UHGV virus genome: UHGV-0385671 | Length of the DNA stretch: 42,417 nucleotides | Source: a virus | Reading direction: 5' to 3' (one strand) | Shown here: positions 5,921 through 33,126 of the stretch, one piece after another | Position numbering within the stretch: position 1 is the first letter of the stretch | Layout of the letters: each line of letters starts with the position of its first letter | Translations under genes and position numbers: made by a program | The notes under the pieces: model-generated | The model's database searches: none | What the model was told of the DNA's origin: nothing | The model's input: the letters and a program-made list of their open reading frames with translations, nothing else

Positions 5921-6469
5921 TTAAATTAGTGCTTCAGCATCAGCACCTTCGCTGATATCGTCAAAATCGTCAGCGCTTGCCACTCCGCCGCCAGCGAATG
6001 CATCGCCGTCTCGCAGGAACTGGACTCCGCCGAGTGAGGCATTAATGCGTTTACCGAAATTATTGTCCTGTGCCCAGATATCGATAACGGCGTTTACATA
6101 GCACCCTGCATAGGGACGTCCATCAGCCTGAATTAGTGGCGAACGATCGCGATCAAGAACAGCTGGGCGCGCTTTGTTAGCAGCATTCAGGAAGAAATTA
6201 CCGGGAAAGCCTTCATACTCTGCTTTTTCATCACCATCATGTAGGCACAGATTGAGTTTTTTCTCCAGCTGGCTATAAATGGGCTCCCACTTTTCTCCCC
6301 ATTTTTCCTTCGCTACCTGCTTCATAGCTTTACGGATTTCTTCCAGTTGTGGGTGTTTGGGTGACATTAAAAATACTGCGGAGAAACGCGGATCGCCTTC
6401 GCCGTTTACAGTTTTAGCTTCAAACAGAGACGGGAAGGCCAGACGAACATTGTTCAGCTTCAGTTTCAT
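5921..6469 (-). CDS. DUF2815-family phage protein (commonly paired with DUF2800; putative ssDNA-binding)
   Basis: N-terminus MKLKLNNVRLAFPSLFEA and gene order next to DUF2800 and PolA. Confidence 0.7.
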   Translation of the reverse strand: MKLKLNNVRLAFPSLFEAKTVNGEGDPRFSAVFLMSPKHPQLEEIRKAMKQVAKEKWGEKWEPIYSQLEKKLNLCLHDGDEKAEYEGFPGNFFLNAANKARPAVLDRDRSPLIQADGRPYAGCYVNAVIDIWAQDNNFGKRINASLGGVQFLRDGDAFAGGGVASADDFDDISEGADAEALI

Positions 6470-26782: not shown

Positions 26783-28760
26783 AACTATTAAAGATTTCCT
26801 CGTCTCGCTTGGCTTCAGTGTGGATGATGCAGGAGCGAAAAAGTTCGGTTCTGTCCTCGCCGGTACAACTGTAAATGTCATCAAAATGGGGCTGGCCGTT
26901 GAAGGAACTGCACTGTCCGTGGTGGCCTTCACGGCTAAGATCGCCTCCGGTCTGGATAATCTTTACTGGGCGTCACAGCGCACCGGCGCGACGGTCCATG
27001 GAATTCAGTCTATTGGCTATGCGGTTTCGCAGGTTGGCGGCAGTGTGGACGCTGCGCGATCTTCTCTGGAAAGCCTCTCCCGGTTTATTCGTAACAATCC
27101 CGGGGCGGAAGGCTTCCTGAATCGCCTTGGTGTACAGACCCGTGACGCCAGCGGTAACATGCGCGACATGGCCGCTATCTTTACGGGCGTCGGCCAGAAG
27201 CTCAGCAGCATGCCGTATTACCGGGCTAACCAGTATGCGCAGATGCTGGGCATTGACGAAAATACCCTCATGGCGATGCGCCGGGGTGTCGGCGGTTTCT
27301 CCGGGCAGTACAGCGCAATGGCGAAGGCTATCGGCTTCAATGCTGACGAGGCGGCCAGAAGTTCCAACAAATTCATGACCTCACTGCGCGAGTTCGGCGC
27401 GATGGCAGGCATGGCCCGTGACAAAATCGGCTCTAATCTTGCGGGTGGGCTTGCGGGTTCGCTGGACACCCTGCGCCGCCATATCCTGGACAACTTCCCT
27501 CGTATCGAGCAGACCCTGACGAAAGCCATAAAAGGCATTCTGGCGCTCGGGGATATTATCGGGCGGCTGTTCTTCAGACTGATTGAAGGAACATCAAGCC
27601 TCATCACCTGGTGGCAATCGCTGGATAAGCAAACGCGGGAGCTCATCTCGCTGTTTGGCGCGCTGACGATTGCGCTGCGCATTCTGAACAGTACGTTCTG
27701 GATGTCGCCGATTGGCCTCATTACCGCGCTGGCGGCGGGGATTGCCCTCCTGTGGGAGGACTATCAGACCTGGAAGGAAGGCGGCGATAGCTTGATTGAC
27801 TGGGGCAAGTGGAAGCCGGAAGTCGACGCCGCGCTGAAGATGGTTCGTGACCTTAAAACGACCGTTAACGACCTGGTGAAAGCGCTGGCGAAACTGCTCA
27901 ATATTGACCCTAAATCATGGTCCCTGAAGTGGGATTTCAGCAACTTCATCGACCAGATGGGCGAATTCAGCAAAATGCTGAACATGATCGCCGACCTGCT
28001 CAACTCTATCAAAGATGGCCGCTGGGCTGATGCCGTCAGCATCGGCAAACAGATACTTAATCAGGGCAGCGAAAATCCGTCAGTGATGCCGATGGTTACA
28101 GACAGCGCTAACAGTACTGCAGACTGGATTAAAGAGCACTGGGGATTCGATCCCCGCAGCGTGGGCCGGACGGTACGCGGCTGGTTTGGTGATGATGAGC
28201 CGGAACAATATGCACAGGCTACGAAACGAGGGGAACGGAATAACAATCCGGGAAACCTTAATTTTGCTGGTCAGGCAGGGGCTTCTCTTGAACGCCCGGG
28301 CGGGCGATTTGCCAGATTTGAAACTGCTTTTGATGGATTACGGGCTCTTGCTCGTCAGTTAATGCTGTACGCCGGACGGGGAATAAACAGTGTGGAGAAA
28401 ATTATCTCTACCTGGGCACCTGCGTCTGATAATAACAACACAACTGCGTATATCAGGGCTGTATCGCAACGACTGGGAGTGGATCCCCGGGCTGCCCTGA
28501 ATATGAGCGATCCGCAAACCATGTCAGCATTGATGAGCAGCATTATCCAGCATGAAAATGGAAGAAATATCTATTCTCGAGAGCTGATTAATAAGGCTGC
28601 CGTGGCGGGAATTAGTGGCAAAATGACAGAGGTTAACCAGCAAAATACTTACCACATTTATGGTGGCGGAGATCCGCACGCTGTCGGTAATGAGGTTGCA
28701 CGTCGGCAACAGTCTGCAAATGCTCAGGTCATGCGAAGTAATCAGGTGAGGGTGGGTTAG
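26772..28760 (+). CDS. Tail tape measure protein
   Basis: 662 aa, low-complexity helical N-terminal half; GGAGAGAGG SD upstream of ATG 26772. Confidence 0.8.
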   Translation: MNAETIKDFLVSLGFSVDDAGAKKFGSVLAGTTVNVIKMGLAVEGTALSVVAFTAKIASGLDNLYWASQRTGATVHGIQSIGYAVSQVGGSVDAARSSLESLSRFIRNNPGAEGFLNRLGVQTRDASGNMRDMAAIFTGVGQKLSSMPYYRANQYAQMLGIDENTLMAMRRGVGGFSGQYSAMAKAIGFNADEAARSSNKFMTSLREFGAMAGMARDKIGSNLAGGLAGSLDTLRRHILDNFPRIEQTLTKAIKGILALGDIIGRLFFRLIEGTSSLITWWQSLDKQTRELISLFGALTIALRILNSTFWMSPIGLITALAAGIALLWEDYQTWKEGGDSLIDWGKWKPEVDAALKMVRDLKTTVNDLVKALAKLLNIDPKSWSLKWDFSNFIDQMGEFSKMLNMIADLLNSIKDGRWADAVSIGKQILNQGSENPSVMPMVTDSANSTADWIKEHWGFDPRSVGRTVRGWFGDDEPEQYAQATKRGERNNNPGNLNFAGQAGASLERPGGRFARFETAFDGLRALARQLMLYAGRGINSVEKIISTWAPASDNNNTTAYIRAVSQRLGVDPRAALNMSDPQTMSALMSSIIQHENGRNIYSRELINKAAVAGISGKMTEVNQQNTYHIYGGGDPHAVGNEVARRQQSANAQVMRSNQVRVG

Positions 28761-29651: not shown

Positions 29652-30719
29652 ATGTCACAAAACTGGATGAGACATTTCGAGCTGCAGCTTGTGGATGGGA
29701 ACGGTCAGGGAATTGAGCTAAGTGATTTCAAAGTCACCTTTACGATCGACTGGTTCAACATCAGCAGCGCGTCCCGGGTAGGGACTATCAAAATTTATAA
29801 CCTCTCGGCAGATACTGTGAACCGAATTACCGGGCAGGAGTTTTCGAAAGTGCGTCTGATGGCGGGTTACGACGGTATCGCGCCGGAGGTGTCGGCAAGC
29901 GACGTAGTGACCGTGCGGGAGGTTGATGCGGCGGACGTGGGCCAGAGTGATGGCCGCAACTACGGACTGATTTTCAGCGGTGAAATTCGCTACTCGGTCA
30001 CAGGAAAAGACAGTCCGGTTGATTCCTACGTCCTGATTCAGGCAGCCGATACAGATCTGGCTTTTGCCACCAGTATAACCTCACAGACGCTGGCTGCCGG
30101 TTACACAGTCGCGGATGTGAACCGTGCGCTGATGAAAGACTTCGAAGCCAAAGGCGCGACCGAAGGCCTGACGCCTGAAATGCCTGCTACTGTATTCCCC
30201 CGAGGGCGGGTACTCTTTGGCATGACGCGGCATCTTATGGATAATGTAGCCGGGCAATGTGGCGCAACATGGCAATTCGTGGACGGTCAGCGCCAGATGG
30301 TGGCGAATAACGAATATGTTCACGAAGCGATTGTGCTCAACAGTGCTACCGGGCTTATTGGCATGCCGCAGCAGACTATCGGTAACGGCGTAAACGTCCG
30401 CGCGCTTATTAATCCGAACATCCGGGTTAACGGGCTCATTCAGCTGGATCAGGCTTCCGTGTATCGTATCGCGCTGTCGAACAACGATATCGCGATGGCC
30501 GGTGGGCAGATCACCGACCAGAACACGGACGGAAATATCACGCTAAGCGGCACCACATCGCAGCCTGCCAGCATCGCAACGGATGGCGTTTATATTGTGC
30601 GCGGGATTATGTACACTGGCGACACAAGGGGGCAGGCGTGGTACATGGATATGATGTGTGAAGCACGTGGCGCGGCTGATCTACTTTCGTCCTCAGCGCA
30701 GCAAAGGATTTATTCATGA
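29652..30719 (+). CDS. Putative baseplate hub-like protein
   Basis: 355 aa; GGAG SD; position between tape measure and spike. Confidence 0.5.
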   Translation: MSQNWMRHFELQLVDGNGQGIELSDFKVTFTIDWFNISSASRVGTIKIYNLSADTVNRITGQEFSKVRLMAGYDGIAPEVSASDVVTVREVDAADVGQSDGRNYGLIFSGEIRYSVTGKDSPVDSYVLIQAADTDLAFATSITSQTLAAGYTVADVNRALMKDFEAKGATEGLTPEMPATVFPRGRVLFGMTRHLMDNVAGQCGATWQFVDGQRQMVANNEYVHEAIVLNSATGLIGMPQQTIGNGVNVRALINPNIRVNGLIQLDQASVYRIALSNNDIAMAGGQITDQNTDGNITLSGTTSQPASIATDGVYIVRGIMYTGDTRGQAWYMDMMCEARGAADLLSSSAQQRIYS

Positions 30720-31063
30720 AGCGTATGAAGTTAGTTTTGACAATTTCGTTATTATTTTCTTGTTCAGCAGCTTTTGCTGATTTGCAATGCGGCGGATATC
30801 TACTTCATGCAGCTGATAACGGTTGGACAAAAATCAACGGTGAACAGGTAACATCACAGAAGATTACGTTTCTTGGTAAGAAAGATGACTGGGACAACGT
30901 TAAAACTAACATGGGCCTGATGCCTTCTCGCGATGGCAACAATTACGGCTTTGAGTTTGTGAAGCGTAACGGAAAAGCTTTCCTGAACGTCCAGCTTCTG
31001 CAGAACAGCATGGATGCGCCTAAAATCATCGGATCATTCCCTTGTAAAAAGGCGTTACGCTAA
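30716..31063 (+). CDS. Secreted small protein (115 aa) inserted in the baseplate module and translationally coupled to the hub gene
   Basis: ATGA overlap with upstream stop; AAGGA SD; signal peptide MKRMKLVLTISLLFSCSAAFA with AFA cleavage motif; AT-rich by eye. Confidence 0.6.
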   Translation: MKRMKLVLTISLLFSCSAAFADLQCGGYLLHAADNGWTKINGEQVTSQKITFLGKKDDWDNVKTNMGLMPSRDGNNYGFEFVKRNGKAFLNVQLLQNSMDAPKIIGSFPCKKALR

Positions 31064-31158
31064 AGTTTGATGTCAATCTTCCGAGATGAGCGCTTTAAGG
31101 TTGACGAGATATTGTTCAAAGTTCACAATCACAATCCCTTTAGTAAGAGAAATAATCC

Positions 31159-31932
31159 ATGGCGGCAGGCATCCCATTAGAAAAAGCGCAAAAATATATT
31201 GAACAATTCAATGCGCTTCTATTGGATAGGGAAAGTTTAGATCCCTTCACTGAAAAGAAAATTCGAGAGGAACTTTCTGTCTCTCCAACGCCTGCTACCA
31301 ACATTGCACTATCTTATCTGGATGCAATAACCGGAAAGATTGAAAGCGCGTTACGTTATCTCAGGATAAGCCTAGAAGTAAACGATGTAACGTTGGCAAT
31401 GCACTATCATCACATTTTAATTAATACATTTAGCTATAATGAACTCAAGGATGTCTATGTCCCGCTGGCAAAGAAGTATCGGACAAAACTCTTTAGTCAC
31501 AACGCATACAGTTGGGCGTACCGTTGCGGCGAGCGTGAACAGTTAAAATTTTATATGGAAGAGCACATTAAGCTTCTTTCTGAATCAGAAGGCAGGAGTA
31601 ATGCTATGAAGCACAAAGAAGAACTCCTTGCAGAAATGGATAATTTCTATAGCGCCACACAGTGCTCGAAGGAACAGTTCCAGACCTTAGCATCCATAAT
31701 CTGGGGCTTGCTAAGTGAATACAAGGCTACGACAGGTTTCGTTCAGCTTAGTGGAAGCGGTTGCTATGTTGTTGATATTAAAAATCTTGAGCCTAAAACT
31801 ATTGCCAAAATGAACTTCGACTTGGCTGATAGAGTCTGCGCTGAATCTAAACTGGATGATTGTTCCCTGTTAGCTAGATTTACCTCTCCGCGTCAGTTGC
31901 ATACGGGGGTGAGCTACCATGTCGGTAACTAG
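31159..31932 (+). CDS. Hypothetical helical protein (257 aa), first gene of a two-gene AT-rich insert
   Basis: ORF overlapping the next gene by 14 nt; no recognised motif. Confidence 0.5.
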   Translation: MAAGIPLEKAQKYIEQFNALLLDRESLDPFTEKKIREELSVSPTPATNIALSYLDAITGKIESALRYLRISLEVNDVTLAMHYHHILINTFSYNELKDVYVPLAKKYRTKLFSHNAYSWAYRCGEREQLKFYMEEHIKLLSESEGRSNAMKHKEELLAEMDNFYSATQCSKEQFQTLASIIWGLLSEYKATTGFVQLSGSGCYVVDIKNLEPKTIAKMNFDLADRVCAESKLDDCSLLARFTSPRQLHTGVSYHVGN

Positions 31933-32314
31933 CAATCAGATTCTCGATACCGCTCGATTATGTCTGTCTGAAAATATTGAGAGTGGATTTCGAAGCGCTA
32001 TCTCAAGGGCGTATTACAGTATGTTACATGAGTCTATTAGCTCACTTACTGCCATACCGCATTTTACCCATGAGCATCACAAAAATACTGTGGGTTATAT
32101 GTCAACGCCCTCAGAGTGCAAATCAGAGCCATACCCGACAAATACACTGAAATCCCTAGCTTTCGTACTTCGCCAGTGGCGGGATGCTAGAAATGAAGCT
32201 GACTATGATCTGACGAATGTGACTGTTTCGAAAGAGATGGGACAGGATGCAATCGAGGCTGCTGAACTCTATTTTGAGCGCTGGGAACAGCTAAAGTCTG
32301 CTAGAGTTTCATGA
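31919..32314 (+). CDS. HEPN-like protein (131 aa), tentative
   Basis: Helix motif SRAYYSMLHESI and C-terminal R-N-x-x-D-Y (ARNEADYD) resemble HEPN-family signatures from memory; followed by a strong terminator. Confidence 0.45.
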   Translation: MSVTSNQILDTARLCLSENIESGFRSAISRAYYSMLHESISSLTAIPHFTHEHHKNTVGYMSTPSECKSEPYPTNTLKSLAFVLRQWRDARNEADYDLTNVTVSKEMGQDAIEAAELYFERWEQLKSARVS

Positions 32315-32331
32315 ATAAAATTAACGTTATC

Positions 32332-32354
32332 AAACCCGCTTCGGCGGGTTTTTT
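32332..32354 (+). terminator. Intrinsic terminator closing the baseplate insert
   Basis: AAACCCGC-TTCG-GCGGGTTT hairpin followed by TTTTTT. Confidence 0.8.
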
Positions 32355-32373: not shown

Positions 32374-33126
32374 ATGGCAGTATCTGACCAGACCCGCAGC
32401 GGCGACCTTGCCGAAACATTCAAATCTGAACGGGAAACAACAAAGAACCAGATCCGTGTCGCCTTGCCTGGCATTATTCAGTCATTCGATCCTGATGCGG
32501 TGACGGCAGTTGTGCAGCCTGCTATCCGTTCGGTTGAAAAGGATAATGACGGCAACCGCATTACCAAAAATTACCCATTGCTGGTGGATGTGCCAGTGGT
32601 ATTCCCGCGCGGCGGAGGATGTACGCTAACGTTCCCAGTTAAAGCCGGTGATGAATGTTTGGTGATTTTTGCCGATCGTTGTATTGATTTCTGGTGGCAG
32701 AGTGGCGGGATACAGGAGTCGGTCGATGACAGAATGCATGATTTATCGGATGCGTTTTGTATTGTCGGTCCCCAGTCGCAGGCAAGGAAGATTAGCGGTA
32801 TTAATACCAGTGCCACACAGTTGCGTAGTGATGACGGCAGCACCTATTTTGAGCTTAATCCTGATATCAGGAAAATTAAAATTGTCGCTCCAGGTGGTCT
32901 TGATGTGGTTGCCCCTCTGGCTGATTTTTCTGAGAAAGTAACCATTCATGGCCTGTTAACCTGGATGGGGGGTATGGTGGGATCTGTGGTTTCTGGTGTG
33001 GCTTCAAAAATCACTGGTGCTGTTGAGTTTTTGGGGAGCGTGAAGGCTAATGGCAAGCCAATCGATGATACACACACTCATGGTGGTGTTCAGCGTGGTG
33101 GAAGCAGTACCGACGGGGTAAACTGA
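32374..33126 (+). CDS. Baseplate central spike protein (gpV / Mu gp45-like)
   Basis: TGGAG SD; 250 aa; C-terminal HTHGG; position before W-like and J-like genes. Confidence 0.6.
   Translation: MAVSDQTRSGDLAETFKSERETTKNQIRVALPGIIQSFDPDAVTAVVQPAIRSVEKDNDGNRITKNYPLLVDVPVVFPRGGGCTLTFPVKAGDECLVIFADRCIDFWWQSGGIQESVDDRMHDLSDAFCIVGPQSQARKISGINTSATQLRSDDGSTYFELNPDIRKIKIVAPGGLDVVAPLADFSEKVTIHGLLTWMGGMVGSVVSGVASKITGAVEFLGSVKANGKPIDDTHTHGGVQRGGSSTDGVN

What the first reader, a model, noticed from the sequence alone, without database searches (positions are those of the whole stretch)
30716..31063. Secreted 115-aa protein translationally coupled to the baseplate hub gene
Its ATG overlaps the hub stop (ATGA) and it has a classic Sec signal peptide with an AFA cleavage motif and four Cys in the mature part. 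It is AT-rich and inserted between baseplate genes. It may be a periplasmic lysogenic-conversion or exclusion factor, or an unusual exported tail-associated protein.
Basis: partly seen in the sequence, partly recalled or inferred. Interest (0 to 1): 0.55.

Follow-up and report, generated by a model that had tools for sequence, protein, structure and literature searches.

The report
Exported beta-barrel protein behind baseplate hub
A small protein that a temperate E. coli phage sends into the space between the two cell membranes is made together with its tail-tip genes; it is a real, widespread but uncharacterised accessory gene, most likely a binder that acts at the cell envelope and not a part of the virus particle.

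Summary
The ORF (30716-31063, +, 115 aa) is real. Its ATG overlaps the hub stop (ATGA), an AAGGA ribosome site lies 7 nt upstream, and its GC is 0.42 against 0.54 for the hub. The signal peptide (A-F-A before D22) is conserved family-wide. The "four Cys" claim is wrong: the mature part has two (C25, C110), both invariant.

The family is phrog_3443, named "STY1065/STY2022 family phage-derived protein" in RefSeq, with no known function. It is confined to Enterobacterales and is under purifying selection.

AlphaFold gives a confident eight-stranded beta-barrel, with the two Cys in the first and last strands. This architecture resembles the MliC/PliC and Neisseria ACP lysozyme inhibitors. No sequence or profile homology to them was found, and fold matches are generic.

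The gene starts -4 to +5 nt from the hub stop in 91 of 92 loci. It is absent from Hafnia, Providencia, Bordetella and Acinetobacter relatives, where the hub abuts the spike or other cargo. Non-prophage homologues exist in Pantoea and Erwinia. It is therefore an accessory gene, not a core structural one.

No own promoter or terminator was found. Its alleles do not co-vary with the tape-measure lysin type, the spike or the fibre.

Best guess, at low confidence: a late-made periplasmic binder or inhibitor that excludes same-lineage tails. Moderately interesting and testable.

The parts
30716..31063 (+). Gene for the 115-aa exported protein (phrog_3443; RefSeq 'STY1065/STY2022 family phage-derived protein')
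   Evidence: ORF listed. PHROG match E 1e-53. RefSeq name on a homologue with 70% identity. 404 homologue clusters. dN/dS 0.01-0.25.
30704..30719 (+). Translational coupling signals: AAGGA (30704-30708), a 7-nt spacer, then ATGA, in which the start ATG overlaps the hub stop TGA
   Evidence: Sequence. In 91 of 92 loci an in-frame start lies -4 to +5 nt from the hub stop, and 52 of these have the 4-nt overlap.
30716..30778 (+). Signal peptide, residues 1-21 (MKRMKLVLTISLLFSCSAAFA). Predicted signal peptidase I cut after A21. This allele also has a lipobox-like LFSC at C16.
   Evidence: Heuristic n/h/c-region analysis: 141 of 142 members have a -3/-1 site, typically 3 residues before the conserved Cys, and the lipobox-like motif occurs in only 8 of 142. 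The region is modelled as a lone helix at pLDDT 59-67.
30779..31060 (+). Mature domain, residues 22-115: an eight-stranded beta-barrel. C25 (30788-30790) lies in strand 1 and C110 (31043-31045) in strand 8. The conserved loops are NGExVTSQK, MPxRDGNNYGF and NSMDAP.
29652..30719 (+). Baseplate hub gene, whose stop overlaps the start of the small gene
   Evidence: phrog_196 baseplate hub, E 3e-88. Pfam E217_GP41 E 5e-5, below the curated cut-off.
31159..32314 (+). Separate two-gene cargo (257 aa + 131 aa) that shares the hub-spike hotspot. It is not part of the small gene's unit.
   Evidence: Promoter-like sites at 31101-31156 and a terminator at 32332-32351. The cargo at this position varies among E. 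coli prophages. No family with a known function matched.
32374..33126 (+). Baseplate spike gene, the downstream border of the slot
   Evidence: Pfam spike N-terminal domain (PF18352, E 4e-44) plus the Apex motif.
28224..28619 (+). Muramidase-like domain at the C-terminus of the tape measure protein. This is a candidate target in the inhibitor hypothesis, not a shown partner.
   Evidence: phmmer matches to PDB 9vvp Gp29 (E 2e-20) and 7q47 'Endolysin' (E 1e-13). Relatives carry an SLT domain at this position instead.

Best explanation
Well supported (about 0.85):
- The gene encodes a Sec-exported small protein whose signal peptide is cut after A21. In this one allele lipidation at C16 is also possible.
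- The mature protein folds in the periplasm into an eight-stranded beta-barrel, closed by a disulfide between the first and last strands (C25-C110).
- It is not a virion part.
- It is an accessory gene fixed directly behind the baseplate hub gene of one lineage of temperate enterobacterial myoviruses.
- It has no promoter or terminator of its own and starts on the hub stop codon. It is therefore made late, together with the tail-tip proteins.

Inferred mechanism (about 0.3; the confidence given for this explanation refers to this part):
- The barrel uses its conserved loop face to bind a component that crosses the envelope. That face is formed by the strand 3-4, 5-6 and 7-8 loops (NGExVTSQK, MPxRDGNNYGF, NSMDAP).
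- The most plausible target is the tip of an incoming tail of the same lineage, or the peptidoglycan hydrolase that the tip carries.
- Binding would stop a cell that is already producing phage, and its debris, from triggering or accepting further ejections. This is exclusion or anti-wastage, in the manner of T4 Spackle or T5 Llp.
For: - Export: the n-, h- and c-regions and the AxA site are conserved in 141 of 142 members. Two Cys are invariant and 139 of 142 members have exactly two in the mature part.
- Fold: pLDDT 91.8, with all five models at 87-92, eight strands, and the Cys in strands 1 and 8.
- Accessory status: the hub abuts the spike in Providencia PSTCR3, Bordetella IFTN9 and Acinetobacter Ab105-1phi. 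Hafnia yong1 carries an unrelated 136-aa protein without a signal peptide in the slot.
- Acts in the cell: non-prophage chromosomal homologues occur in Pantoea and Erwinia. A lipoprotein-fused variant sits in the same slot.
- Late co-expression: the ATGA overlap plus AAGGA. A start codon lies -4 to +5 nt from the hub stop in 91 of 92 loci. No conserved promoter was found.
- Functional gene: dN/dS is 0.01-0.25. The gene is kept even where nothing else lies between hub and spike (L045, L059, L061, L071).
- Conserved face: the invariant residues fall in the loops at one end of the barrel, judged by placing the invariant columns on the strand order.
- Possible target: the tail tip carries a muramidase or an SLT domain.
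- Precedent for envelope-acting exclusion genes in or beside tail modules: HK97 gp15 (PMC3594210), T4 Spackle (PMC7677548) and T5 Llp (PMC9586334) (abstracts).
Against: - There is no experimental or literature evidence for any function.
- Allele classes of the variable N-terminal half are split about evenly between the muramidase-type and SLT-type tape measures. They also occur with several spike types and many fibre types. Spearman rho with those genes is 0.01-0.28. There is thus no sign of a specificity link to the entry apparatus.
- Late-only expression is a poor fit for classical prophage-mediated exclusion.
- Fold matches are generic: avidins and FABPs score as well, and Foldseek finds nothing significant.
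- There is no homology to MliC/PliC or to any solved structure.
- Relatives that lack the gene still carry the tape-measure hydrolase domain.
- The disulfide and the loop-face geometry were read from the strand order, not from coordinates.
Confidence: 0.3

Rival explanations
1. A periplasmic ligand-binding or envelope-modulating barrel that serves the lytic cycle in some other way. Examples are the timing or completeness of lysis, release of progeny, or sequestering a muropeptide, lipid or metal. It would have no role in exclusion.
For: - The gene is coupled to the late operon and has no promoter.
- It shows no co-variation with the entry apparatus.
- Chromosomal homologues in housekeeping contexts suggest a cellular role independent of phage.
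Against: - No ligand-binding motif or cavity was shown.
- The lysis cassette lies elsewhere in the genome; the closely related phages have Rz annotated.
- The fixed position beside the tail-tip genes would be unexplained.
Confidence: 0.25
2. A lysozyme or lytic-transglycosylase inhibitor of the MliC/PliC/ACP type that benefits the lysogen (lysogenic conversion). It would give tolerance to host lysozyme or to rival peptidoglycan-degrading toxins.
For: - It is an eight-stranded barrel with the two Cys in the first and last strands, and it is exported.
- ACP shows that such barrels can inhibit lysozyme without the MliC motifs (PMC5507604).
- UniRef names one member 'C-type lysozyme inhibitor domain-containing protein'.
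- The family is common in gut pathogens.
Against: - PF09864 matches none of 46 members even at E 10.
- hhalign against an MliC alignment gives probability 1%.
- The MliC motifs are absent; the MliC consensus has SASGARY and FWSKGD.
- There is no promoter for expression in the lysogen.
- The structural similarity is no better than to avidins.
Confidence: 0.12
3. An outer-membrane lipoprotein that masks the phage receptor from the periplasmic side, like Cor or Llp.
For: - This allele has a lipobox-like L-F-S-C at C16.
- 292- and 265-aa relatives are clear lipoproteins with the domain at their C-terminus, and the 292-aa one sits in the same slot.
- T5 Llp is precedent for a lipoprotein that blocks the phage receptor (PMC9586334).
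Against: - The lipobox is present in only 8 of 142 members. Close alleles have F or V at -1, or no Cys at all.
- There is no association between allele and fibre C-terminus (rho 0.01).
Confidence: 0.06
4. A structural or assembly component of the baseplate whose hydrophobic N-terminus is not a secretion signal.
For: - It is always adjacent to the hub and translationally coupled to it.
- It is present in nearly all close relatives.
- It is retained when no other cargo is present.
Against: - The AxA site and the periplasm-type Cys pair are conserved.
- Tails of Providencia, Bordetella, Acinetobacter and Hafnia relatives lack it.
- Chromosomal non-prophage homologues exist.
- Alleles are swapped independently of every structural gene.
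- Its GC is 12 points below that of the hub.
Confidence: 0.05

Closest known systems
HK97 gp15 (tail-operon moron, superinfection exclusion; PMC3594210)
   Same: Both are small envelope-targeted proteins encoded inside the tail operon next to genes of the DNA-delivery apparatus. Both have GC unlike their neighbours, both have homologues in Enterobacterales chromosomes outside prophages, and both are absent from some related phages.
   Different: gp15 is an inner-membrane protein with its own promoter and terminator and is expressed from the prophage. This protein is a soluble (or lipid-anchored) periplasmic beta-barrel without signals of its own, coupled to the hub gene. There is no sequence relationship.
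T4 Spackle (periplasmic inhibitor of the gp5 tail lysozyme; PMC7677548)
   Same: Both are small, signal-peptide-bearing periplasmic proteins of a contractile-tailed phage. The phage here also carries a peptidoglycan hydrolase on its tail tip (the tape-measure C-terminus).
   Different: By my recollection (not checked here) Spackle is helical and is an early gene. No binding or inhibition was tested for this protein, and its alleles do not track the type of hydrolase.
MliC/PliC (PF09864) and Neisseria ACP lysozyme inhibitors (PMC2267010, PMC5507604)
   Different: There is no Pfam match, hhalign probability is 1%, the SxSGAxY-type motifs are absent, and the family profile finds no PDB chain. The structural score is no better than to avidins.
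T5 Llp, and Cor of phi80/N15 (receptor-blocking lipoproteins encoded beside the tail or receptor-binding genes; PMC9586334 for Llp, Cor from my own knowledge)
   Same: All are envelope proteins encoded in or beside the tail module. The logic that late or early expression protects progeny and excludes kin could apply here.
   Different: Llp and Cor are lipoproteins tied to one receptor (FhuA). Here the lipobox is not conserved and there is no link to the fibre type.

Membership tests
phrog_3443 / RefSeq 'STY1065/STY2022 family phage-derived protein' (function unknown) | Significant full-length match to the family profile or name | tested here: met
   PHROG E 1.1e-53 over residues 1-112. A homologue with 70% identity in the same slot carries the RefSeq name. 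No NCBIfam HMM matched.
Sec signal peptide cut by signal peptidase I | Basic n-region, hydrophobic h-region, small residues at -3 and -1 | tested here: met
   MKRMK / LVLTISLLFSCSAAF / A-F-A before D22. 141 of 142 members have such a site. Position -1 is Ala in 121 of them. This was a heuristic check, not SignalP.
Bacterial lipoprotein (signal peptidase II) | Lipobox L-[ASTVI]-[GAS]-C at the end of the h-region, conserved in the family | tested here: inconclusive
   The window has L-F-S-C at C16, with an atypical F at -2. Only 8 of 142 members have a lipobox-like motif. The fused relatives P0135 and P0155 have clear lipoboxes.
MliC/PliC lysozyme inhibitors (PF09864) | Match to PF09864, or profile-profile similarity to MliC | tested here: not met
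   None of 46 members match PF09864 at E up to 10. hhalign of A1 against the MliC alignment A4 gives probability 1%.
MliC/PliC lysozyme inhibitors (PF09864) | Conserved lysozyme-contact motifs (SxSGAxY loop and the second conserved loop) | tested here: not met
   The MliC consensus has SASGARY and FWSKGD. The family here has NGExVTSQK, MPxRDGNNYGF and NSMDAP instead.
MliC/PliC lysozyme inhibitors (PF09864) | Exported eight-stranded beta-barrel with a disulfide | tested here: met
MliC/PliC lysozyme inhibitors (PF09864) | Inhibits c-type lysozyme | not testable with these tools
   Needs an enzyme assay with purified protein.
Moron (as defined in PMC3594210) | GC content unlike the neighbours, and absence from some related phages | tested here: met
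   GC 0.422 against 0.543 for the hub. Absent in Hafnia yong1, Providencia PSTCR3, Bordetella IFTN9 and Acinetobacter Ab105-1phi.
Moron (as defined in PMC3594210) | Own promoter and terminator, allowing expression from the repressed prophage | tested here: not met
   There is no intergenic space upstream (ATGA overlap). The only promoter-like site (30217-30245) is at chance frequency and loses its -10 T in relatives. There is no terminator before 32332. This was a consensus scan only.
Tail-module superinfection-exclusion proteins (gp15, Llp, Cor, Spackle; a functional class) | Located in the cell envelope | tested here: met
   Predicted export. This is a prediction only.
Tail-module superinfection-exclusion proteins (gp15, Llp, Cor, Spackle; a functional class) | Specificity tied to the phage's own entry apparatus | tested here: not met
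   Allele classes are not associated with the tape-measure hydrolase type, the spike type or the fibre C-terminus. Rho is 0.01-0.28, and alleles 0 and 1 are each split about 50:50 between the hydrolase types.
Tail-module superinfection-exclusion proteins (gp15, Llp, Cor, Spackle; a functional class) | Blocks infection when expressed alone | not testable with these tools
   Needs plating, adsorption and ejection assays.
Virion structural protein of this tail type | Present in all tails of the type | tested here: not met
   Present in every listed phage record with a hub of at least 50% identity except Hafnia yong1. Absent in more distant tails with the same gene order.
Virion structural protein of this tail type | Detected in purified particles | not testable with these tools
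   No proteomics was found in the one paper read on a related phage (SEN34).

The most novel reading that the evidence does not exclude
This would be a new family of phage-encoded periplasmic inhibitors with ACP/PliC-like architecture. It would have evolved independently of MliC/PliC and of T4 Spackle. It would neutralise the peptidoglycan hydrolase (muramidase or SLT) carried on the tape measure of incoming contractile tails. That would give a widespread lineage of temperate enterobacterial prophages (about 6-8% of complete E. coli genomes) a Spackle-like block to tail penetration. The chromosomal Pantoea and Erwinia copies would be the domesticated or ancestral form.
Probability: 0.15. Interest if true: 0.7.

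Novelty: new member of a known kind. Interest (0 to 1): 0.4.

Why it matters
If the protein acts at the envelope against incoming tails or peptidoglycan hydrolases, it would be a new, compact and easily testable exclusion or inhibitor module. It is carried by prophages in several hundred sequenced E. coli genomes, and also in Salmonella, Klebsiella and Yersinia genomes. That bears on phage-therapy host range and on how lysogens resist lysozyme-like enzymes.

Even without that, the locus marks the hub-spike junction of this tail type as a cargo hotspot. One semi-fixed exported gene sits next to freely exchanged cassettes. This is a useful place to look for new defence or counter-defence genes.

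Tried and rejected
- Family searches on the 115-aa protein: Pfam, NCBIfam and PADLOC gave nothing. PHROGs gave only a family of unknown function.
- A PDB sequence search with the family profile found nothing.
- MliC membership was rejected by hhalign (probability 1%), despite a UniRef label on one member.
- I tested whether the variable N-terminal half tracks the tape-measure hydrolase type, the spike or the fibre. It does not.
- I looked for positive selection. dN/dS is low, and the high synonymous divergence shows old alleles exchanged by recombination instead.
- I looked for a promoter of the gene's own. The single candidate is not conserved.
- I checked whether an Erwinia homologue next to hcp is a T6SS immunity gene. 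Its neighbours have no recognisable effector domain.
- The N-terminal domain of the 292-aa fusion variant matched nothing in PDB, Pfam or PHROGs.
- Literature searches on STY1065, STY2022 and SEN34 found no functional or proteomic data.
- Complex prediction with tail-tip proteins was not possible with the tools allowed.
Full report
**1. What is in the sequence**

- The ORF at 30716-31063 (+) encodes 115 aa.
- Its ATG (30716-30718) overlaps the TGA (30717-30719) of the upstream 355-aa gene as ATGA. An AAGGA lies 7 nt upstream.
- The upstream gene is a baseplate hub (phrog_196, E 3e-88; weak Pfam E217_GP41).
- The hub sits in a tail module with this order: tape measure, Dit-like protein, Pam3_gp18-like plug, hub, [slot], spike, sheath initiator, baseplate J, wedge, fibre.
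- The small gene has GC 0.422, against 0.543 for the hub and 0.495 for the spike.
- The protein starts with MKRMK, then a hydrophobic core, then A-F-A before D22.
- It contains three Cys, not the stated four plus: C16 inside the signal peptide, and C25 and C110 in the mature part.

**2. The gene is real and belongs to an uncharacterised family**

- It matches phrog_3443 (unknown function) at E 1e-53.
- It has 404 homologue clusters at 90% identity. All that carry an organism name are Enterobacterales.
- A profile search of 1.84 billion representatives finds only 66 clusters at 50% identity.
- RefSeq names one homologue 'STY1065/STY2022 family phage-derived protein'.
- Pfam, NCBIfam and PADLOC give nothing.
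- A profile search of all PDB sequences gives nothing.
- Full-text searches on the locus tags and on phage SEN34 found no functional or proteomic data.
- Pairwise dN/dS is 0.01-0.25 in all parts of the gene.

**3. Export**

- Of 142 full-length members, 141 have a -3/-1 small-residue site within 8 residues of the first conserved Cys. The site is usually 3 residues before that Cys, and position -1 is Ala in 121 cases.
- 138 of 142 have a basic residue in the first eight positions.
- 139 of 142 have exactly two Cys after the predicted cut.
- The two Cys are invariant.
- The lipobox-like L-F-S-C of this allele occurs in only 8 of 142 members. Close alleles have F or V at -1, or no Cys there.
- The conserved feature is therefore a signal peptide cut by signal peptidase I. 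Lipidation of this particular allele stays open.

**4. Fold**

- AlphaFold2 on the full protein gave a lone N-terminal helix followed by eight strands. The best model had pLDDT 85, but the other four were poor.
- On the mature part, with a 76-sequence alignment, all five models reached pLDDT 87-92 and pTM was 0.82.
- That model has eight strands, with C25 in the first and C110 in the last.
- Foldseek against the PDB and against viral models finds nothing significant.
- The architecture is the one described for MliC/PliC and for Neisseria ACP: an eight-stranded barrel with a disulfide between the first and last strands, which inhibits lysozyme without MliC motifs (PMC5507604).
- That is a resemblance, not membership. 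PF09864 matches none of 46 members, and hhalign against an MliC alignment gives probability 1%.
- The MliC motifs are absent.
- The invariant residues fall mainly in the strand 3-4, 5-6 and 7-8 loops (NGExVTSQK, MPxRDGNNYGF, NSMDAP). By the strand order these loops lie at one end of the barrel.
- The variable segments lie in the loops at the other end. I read this from sequence and strand order, not from coordinates.

**5. Position and distribution**

- In the phage collection, every listed record with a hub of at least 50% identity has a homologue directly after the hub, except Hafnia phage yong1.
- The records with a homologue are hosted by Escherichia, Salmonella, Klebsiella, Yersinia and Citrobacter.
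- Hafnia yong1 carries an unrelated 136-aa protein without a signal peptide in the slot.
- In 92 loci that hold both genes, an in-frame start lies -4 to +5 nt from the hub stop in 91. Of these, 52 have the 4-nt overlap and 31 a 1-nt overlap. The loci are not independent of each other.
- The exception has the gene between the plug and the hub.
- The distance from the small gene to the spike ranges from 37 to 1392 nt. The small gene is therefore kept even when nothing else is in the slot (L045, L059, L061, L071).
- More distant tails of the same gene order lack the gene. In Providencia PSTCR3, Bordetella IFTN9 and Acinetobacter Ab105-1phi the hub runs straight into the spike.
- Burkholderia Magia has a reverse-strand ORF in the slot.
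- Elizabethkingia EKP1 has an unrelated 107-aa secreted protein there.
- A 292-aa lipoprotein with this domain at its C-terminus occupies the same slot in other contigs.
- The family also has members outside prophages, all in ordinary chromosomal contexts. In Pantoea they lie beside fliE-fliF. One lies between cls-yciY and yciI, and one lies next to tsx.
- In complete E. coli genomes the hub is found in 409 of 5426. DNA similar to the small gene is found in at least 319.
- Only 19 genomes carry this allele over at least 80% of its length.
- Together these facts make a core structural role very unlikely. They point to an accessory protein that works in the cell envelope.

**6. Expression signals**

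- There is no intergenic space upstream of the gene.
- The consensus scan finds one promoter-like site 470 nt upstream, inside the hub gene (30217-30245). The number of sites found equals the chance expectation.
- In relatives its -10 hexamer reads GATAAC, so the key T is lost.
- No terminator-like site lies between the small gene and 32332.
- The two genes that follow (257 and 131 aa, 31159-32314) do have promoter-like sites (31101-31156) and a strong terminator (32332-32351).
- That position holds different cargo in other E. coli prophages: DUF4282, thioredoxin-domain, DUF2335 or YafO genes.
- The slot therefore holds a semi-fixed exported gene coupled to the hub, plus an exchangeable moron.
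- The small gene meets the compositional criterion for a moron but not the transcriptional one (definition in PMC3594210).

**7. Allelic pattern**

- Phages whose hubs are 97% identical can have small proteins only 68% identical.
- The difference lies in the signal peptide and the first half of the mature protein. That half falls into seven allele classes at 80% identity.
- Synonymous divergence in the small gene (pS 0.3-0.8) far exceeds that in the adjacent hub (0.12-0.17) for these pairs, and dN/dS stays low.
- The alleles are therefore old and have been swapped by recombination. They are not evolving fast.
- The two halves can reassort. L033 and L039 have this window's N-terminal half with a divergent C-terminal half.

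**8. Tests of mechanism**

- The tape measure here ends in a muramidase-like domain. It matches PDB 9vvp Gp29 (E 2e-20) and 7q47 'Endolysin' (E 1e-13).
- Near-identical tails carry an SLT domain at that position instead.
- If the small protein were a specific inhibitor of that enzyme, or a mask for the receptor, its alleles should track the enzyme type, the spike or the fibre. They do not.
- The two commonest alleles are each split about evenly between the two enzyme types. They also occur with several spike types and many fibre types.
- Rank correlations of pairwise identity are 0.11 with the tape-measure C-terminus, 0.24 with the spike and 0.01 with the fibre C-terminus.
- The conserved C-terminal half simply follows the phage backbone (rho 0.4-0.5).
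- This weakens an allele-specific model. It does not exclude a general binder that uses the conserved loops.

**9. Conclusion**

- With high confidence, this is a Sec-exported, disulfide-bonded periplasmic beta-barrel. It is accessory, made late together with the tail-tip proteins, and not part of the virion.
- Its function is not shown.
- My best guess (about 0.3) is a binder or inhibitor that acts on incoming tails of the lineage, or on their peptidoglycan hydrolase. This follows the logic of T4 Spackle (PMC7677548), T5 Llp (PMC9586334) and HK97 gp15 (PMC3594210).
- The main rival (about 0.25) is some other periplasmic role in the lytic cycle.
- A lysozyme inhibitor that benefits the lysogen (0.12), a receptor-masking lipoprotein (0.06) and a structural role (0.05) are less likely.
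- The finding is a new, uncharacterised member of a familiar kind, namely envelope-acting accessory genes inside tail modules. It is moderately interesting and directly testable.

Noticed in passing
window 31101-32351: There is a self-contained two-gene cassette (257 aa at 31159-31932, 131 aa at 31919-32314, overlapping by 14 nt). It has promoter-like sites at 31101-31156 and a strong terminator at 32332-32351. It matches only PHROG families of unknown function (phrog_17809, phrog_5176) and has no PADLOC hit. The 131-aa protein has HEPN-like strings (SRAYYSMLH, RNEADYD) by eye only. Other E. coli prophages carry DUF4282, thioredoxin-domain, DUF2335 or YafO genes at the same place, so the hub-spike junction is a cargo hotspot.
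   Followed up: partly
window 28224-28619 (tape measure C-terminus): The tape measure ends in a muramidase-like domain related to PDB 7q47 'Endolysin' and 9vvp Gp29. Otherwise near-identical tails carry an SLT lytic-transglycosylase domain at the same position. The tail-tip peptidoglycan hydrolase is thus exchanged as a module.
   Followed up: partly
L103, L105, L110 (Pantoea) about 6001-6342; L016 6001-6357; L014 6001-6339: Non-prophage chromosomal homologues of the exported protein exist. In Pantoea they lie just downstream of fliF-fliE. Elsewhere one lies between cls-yciY and yciI and one lies near tsx. These may be the source or a domesticated form of the phage gene.
   Followed up: partly
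L009 8001-8879; L010 4625-5503: There is a 292-aa lipoprotein (lipobox LSGC) with an unknown N-terminal domain of about 190 aa fused to this beta-barrel domain. It is encoded in exactly the same slot after the hub.
   Followed up: partly
L008 3799-4122 (Elizabethkingia phage EKP1): An unrelated 107-aa protein with a signal peptide occupies the hub-spike slot. This suggests that small secreted proteins recur at this position in different lineages.
   Followed up: no
window 30716-31063 compared with L033 and L039: There is recombination inside the gene. The N-terminal half is the window allele (pN 0.03), while the C-terminal half is strongly diverged (pN 0.13-0.16, pS about 0.9).
   Followed up: yes
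E. coli S1-IND-01-A, NZ_CP145657.1 1591178-1595988: The 100%-identical copy of the hub-to-spike region in this strain spans about 1.3 kb more than the window. An IS2 transposase and two spike fragments are annotated there, so IS2 appears to have disrupted the spike gene.
   Followed up: no
L013 6001-6330: In one divergent tail module the homologue lies between the plug gene and the hub gene instead of after the hub.
   Followed up: no
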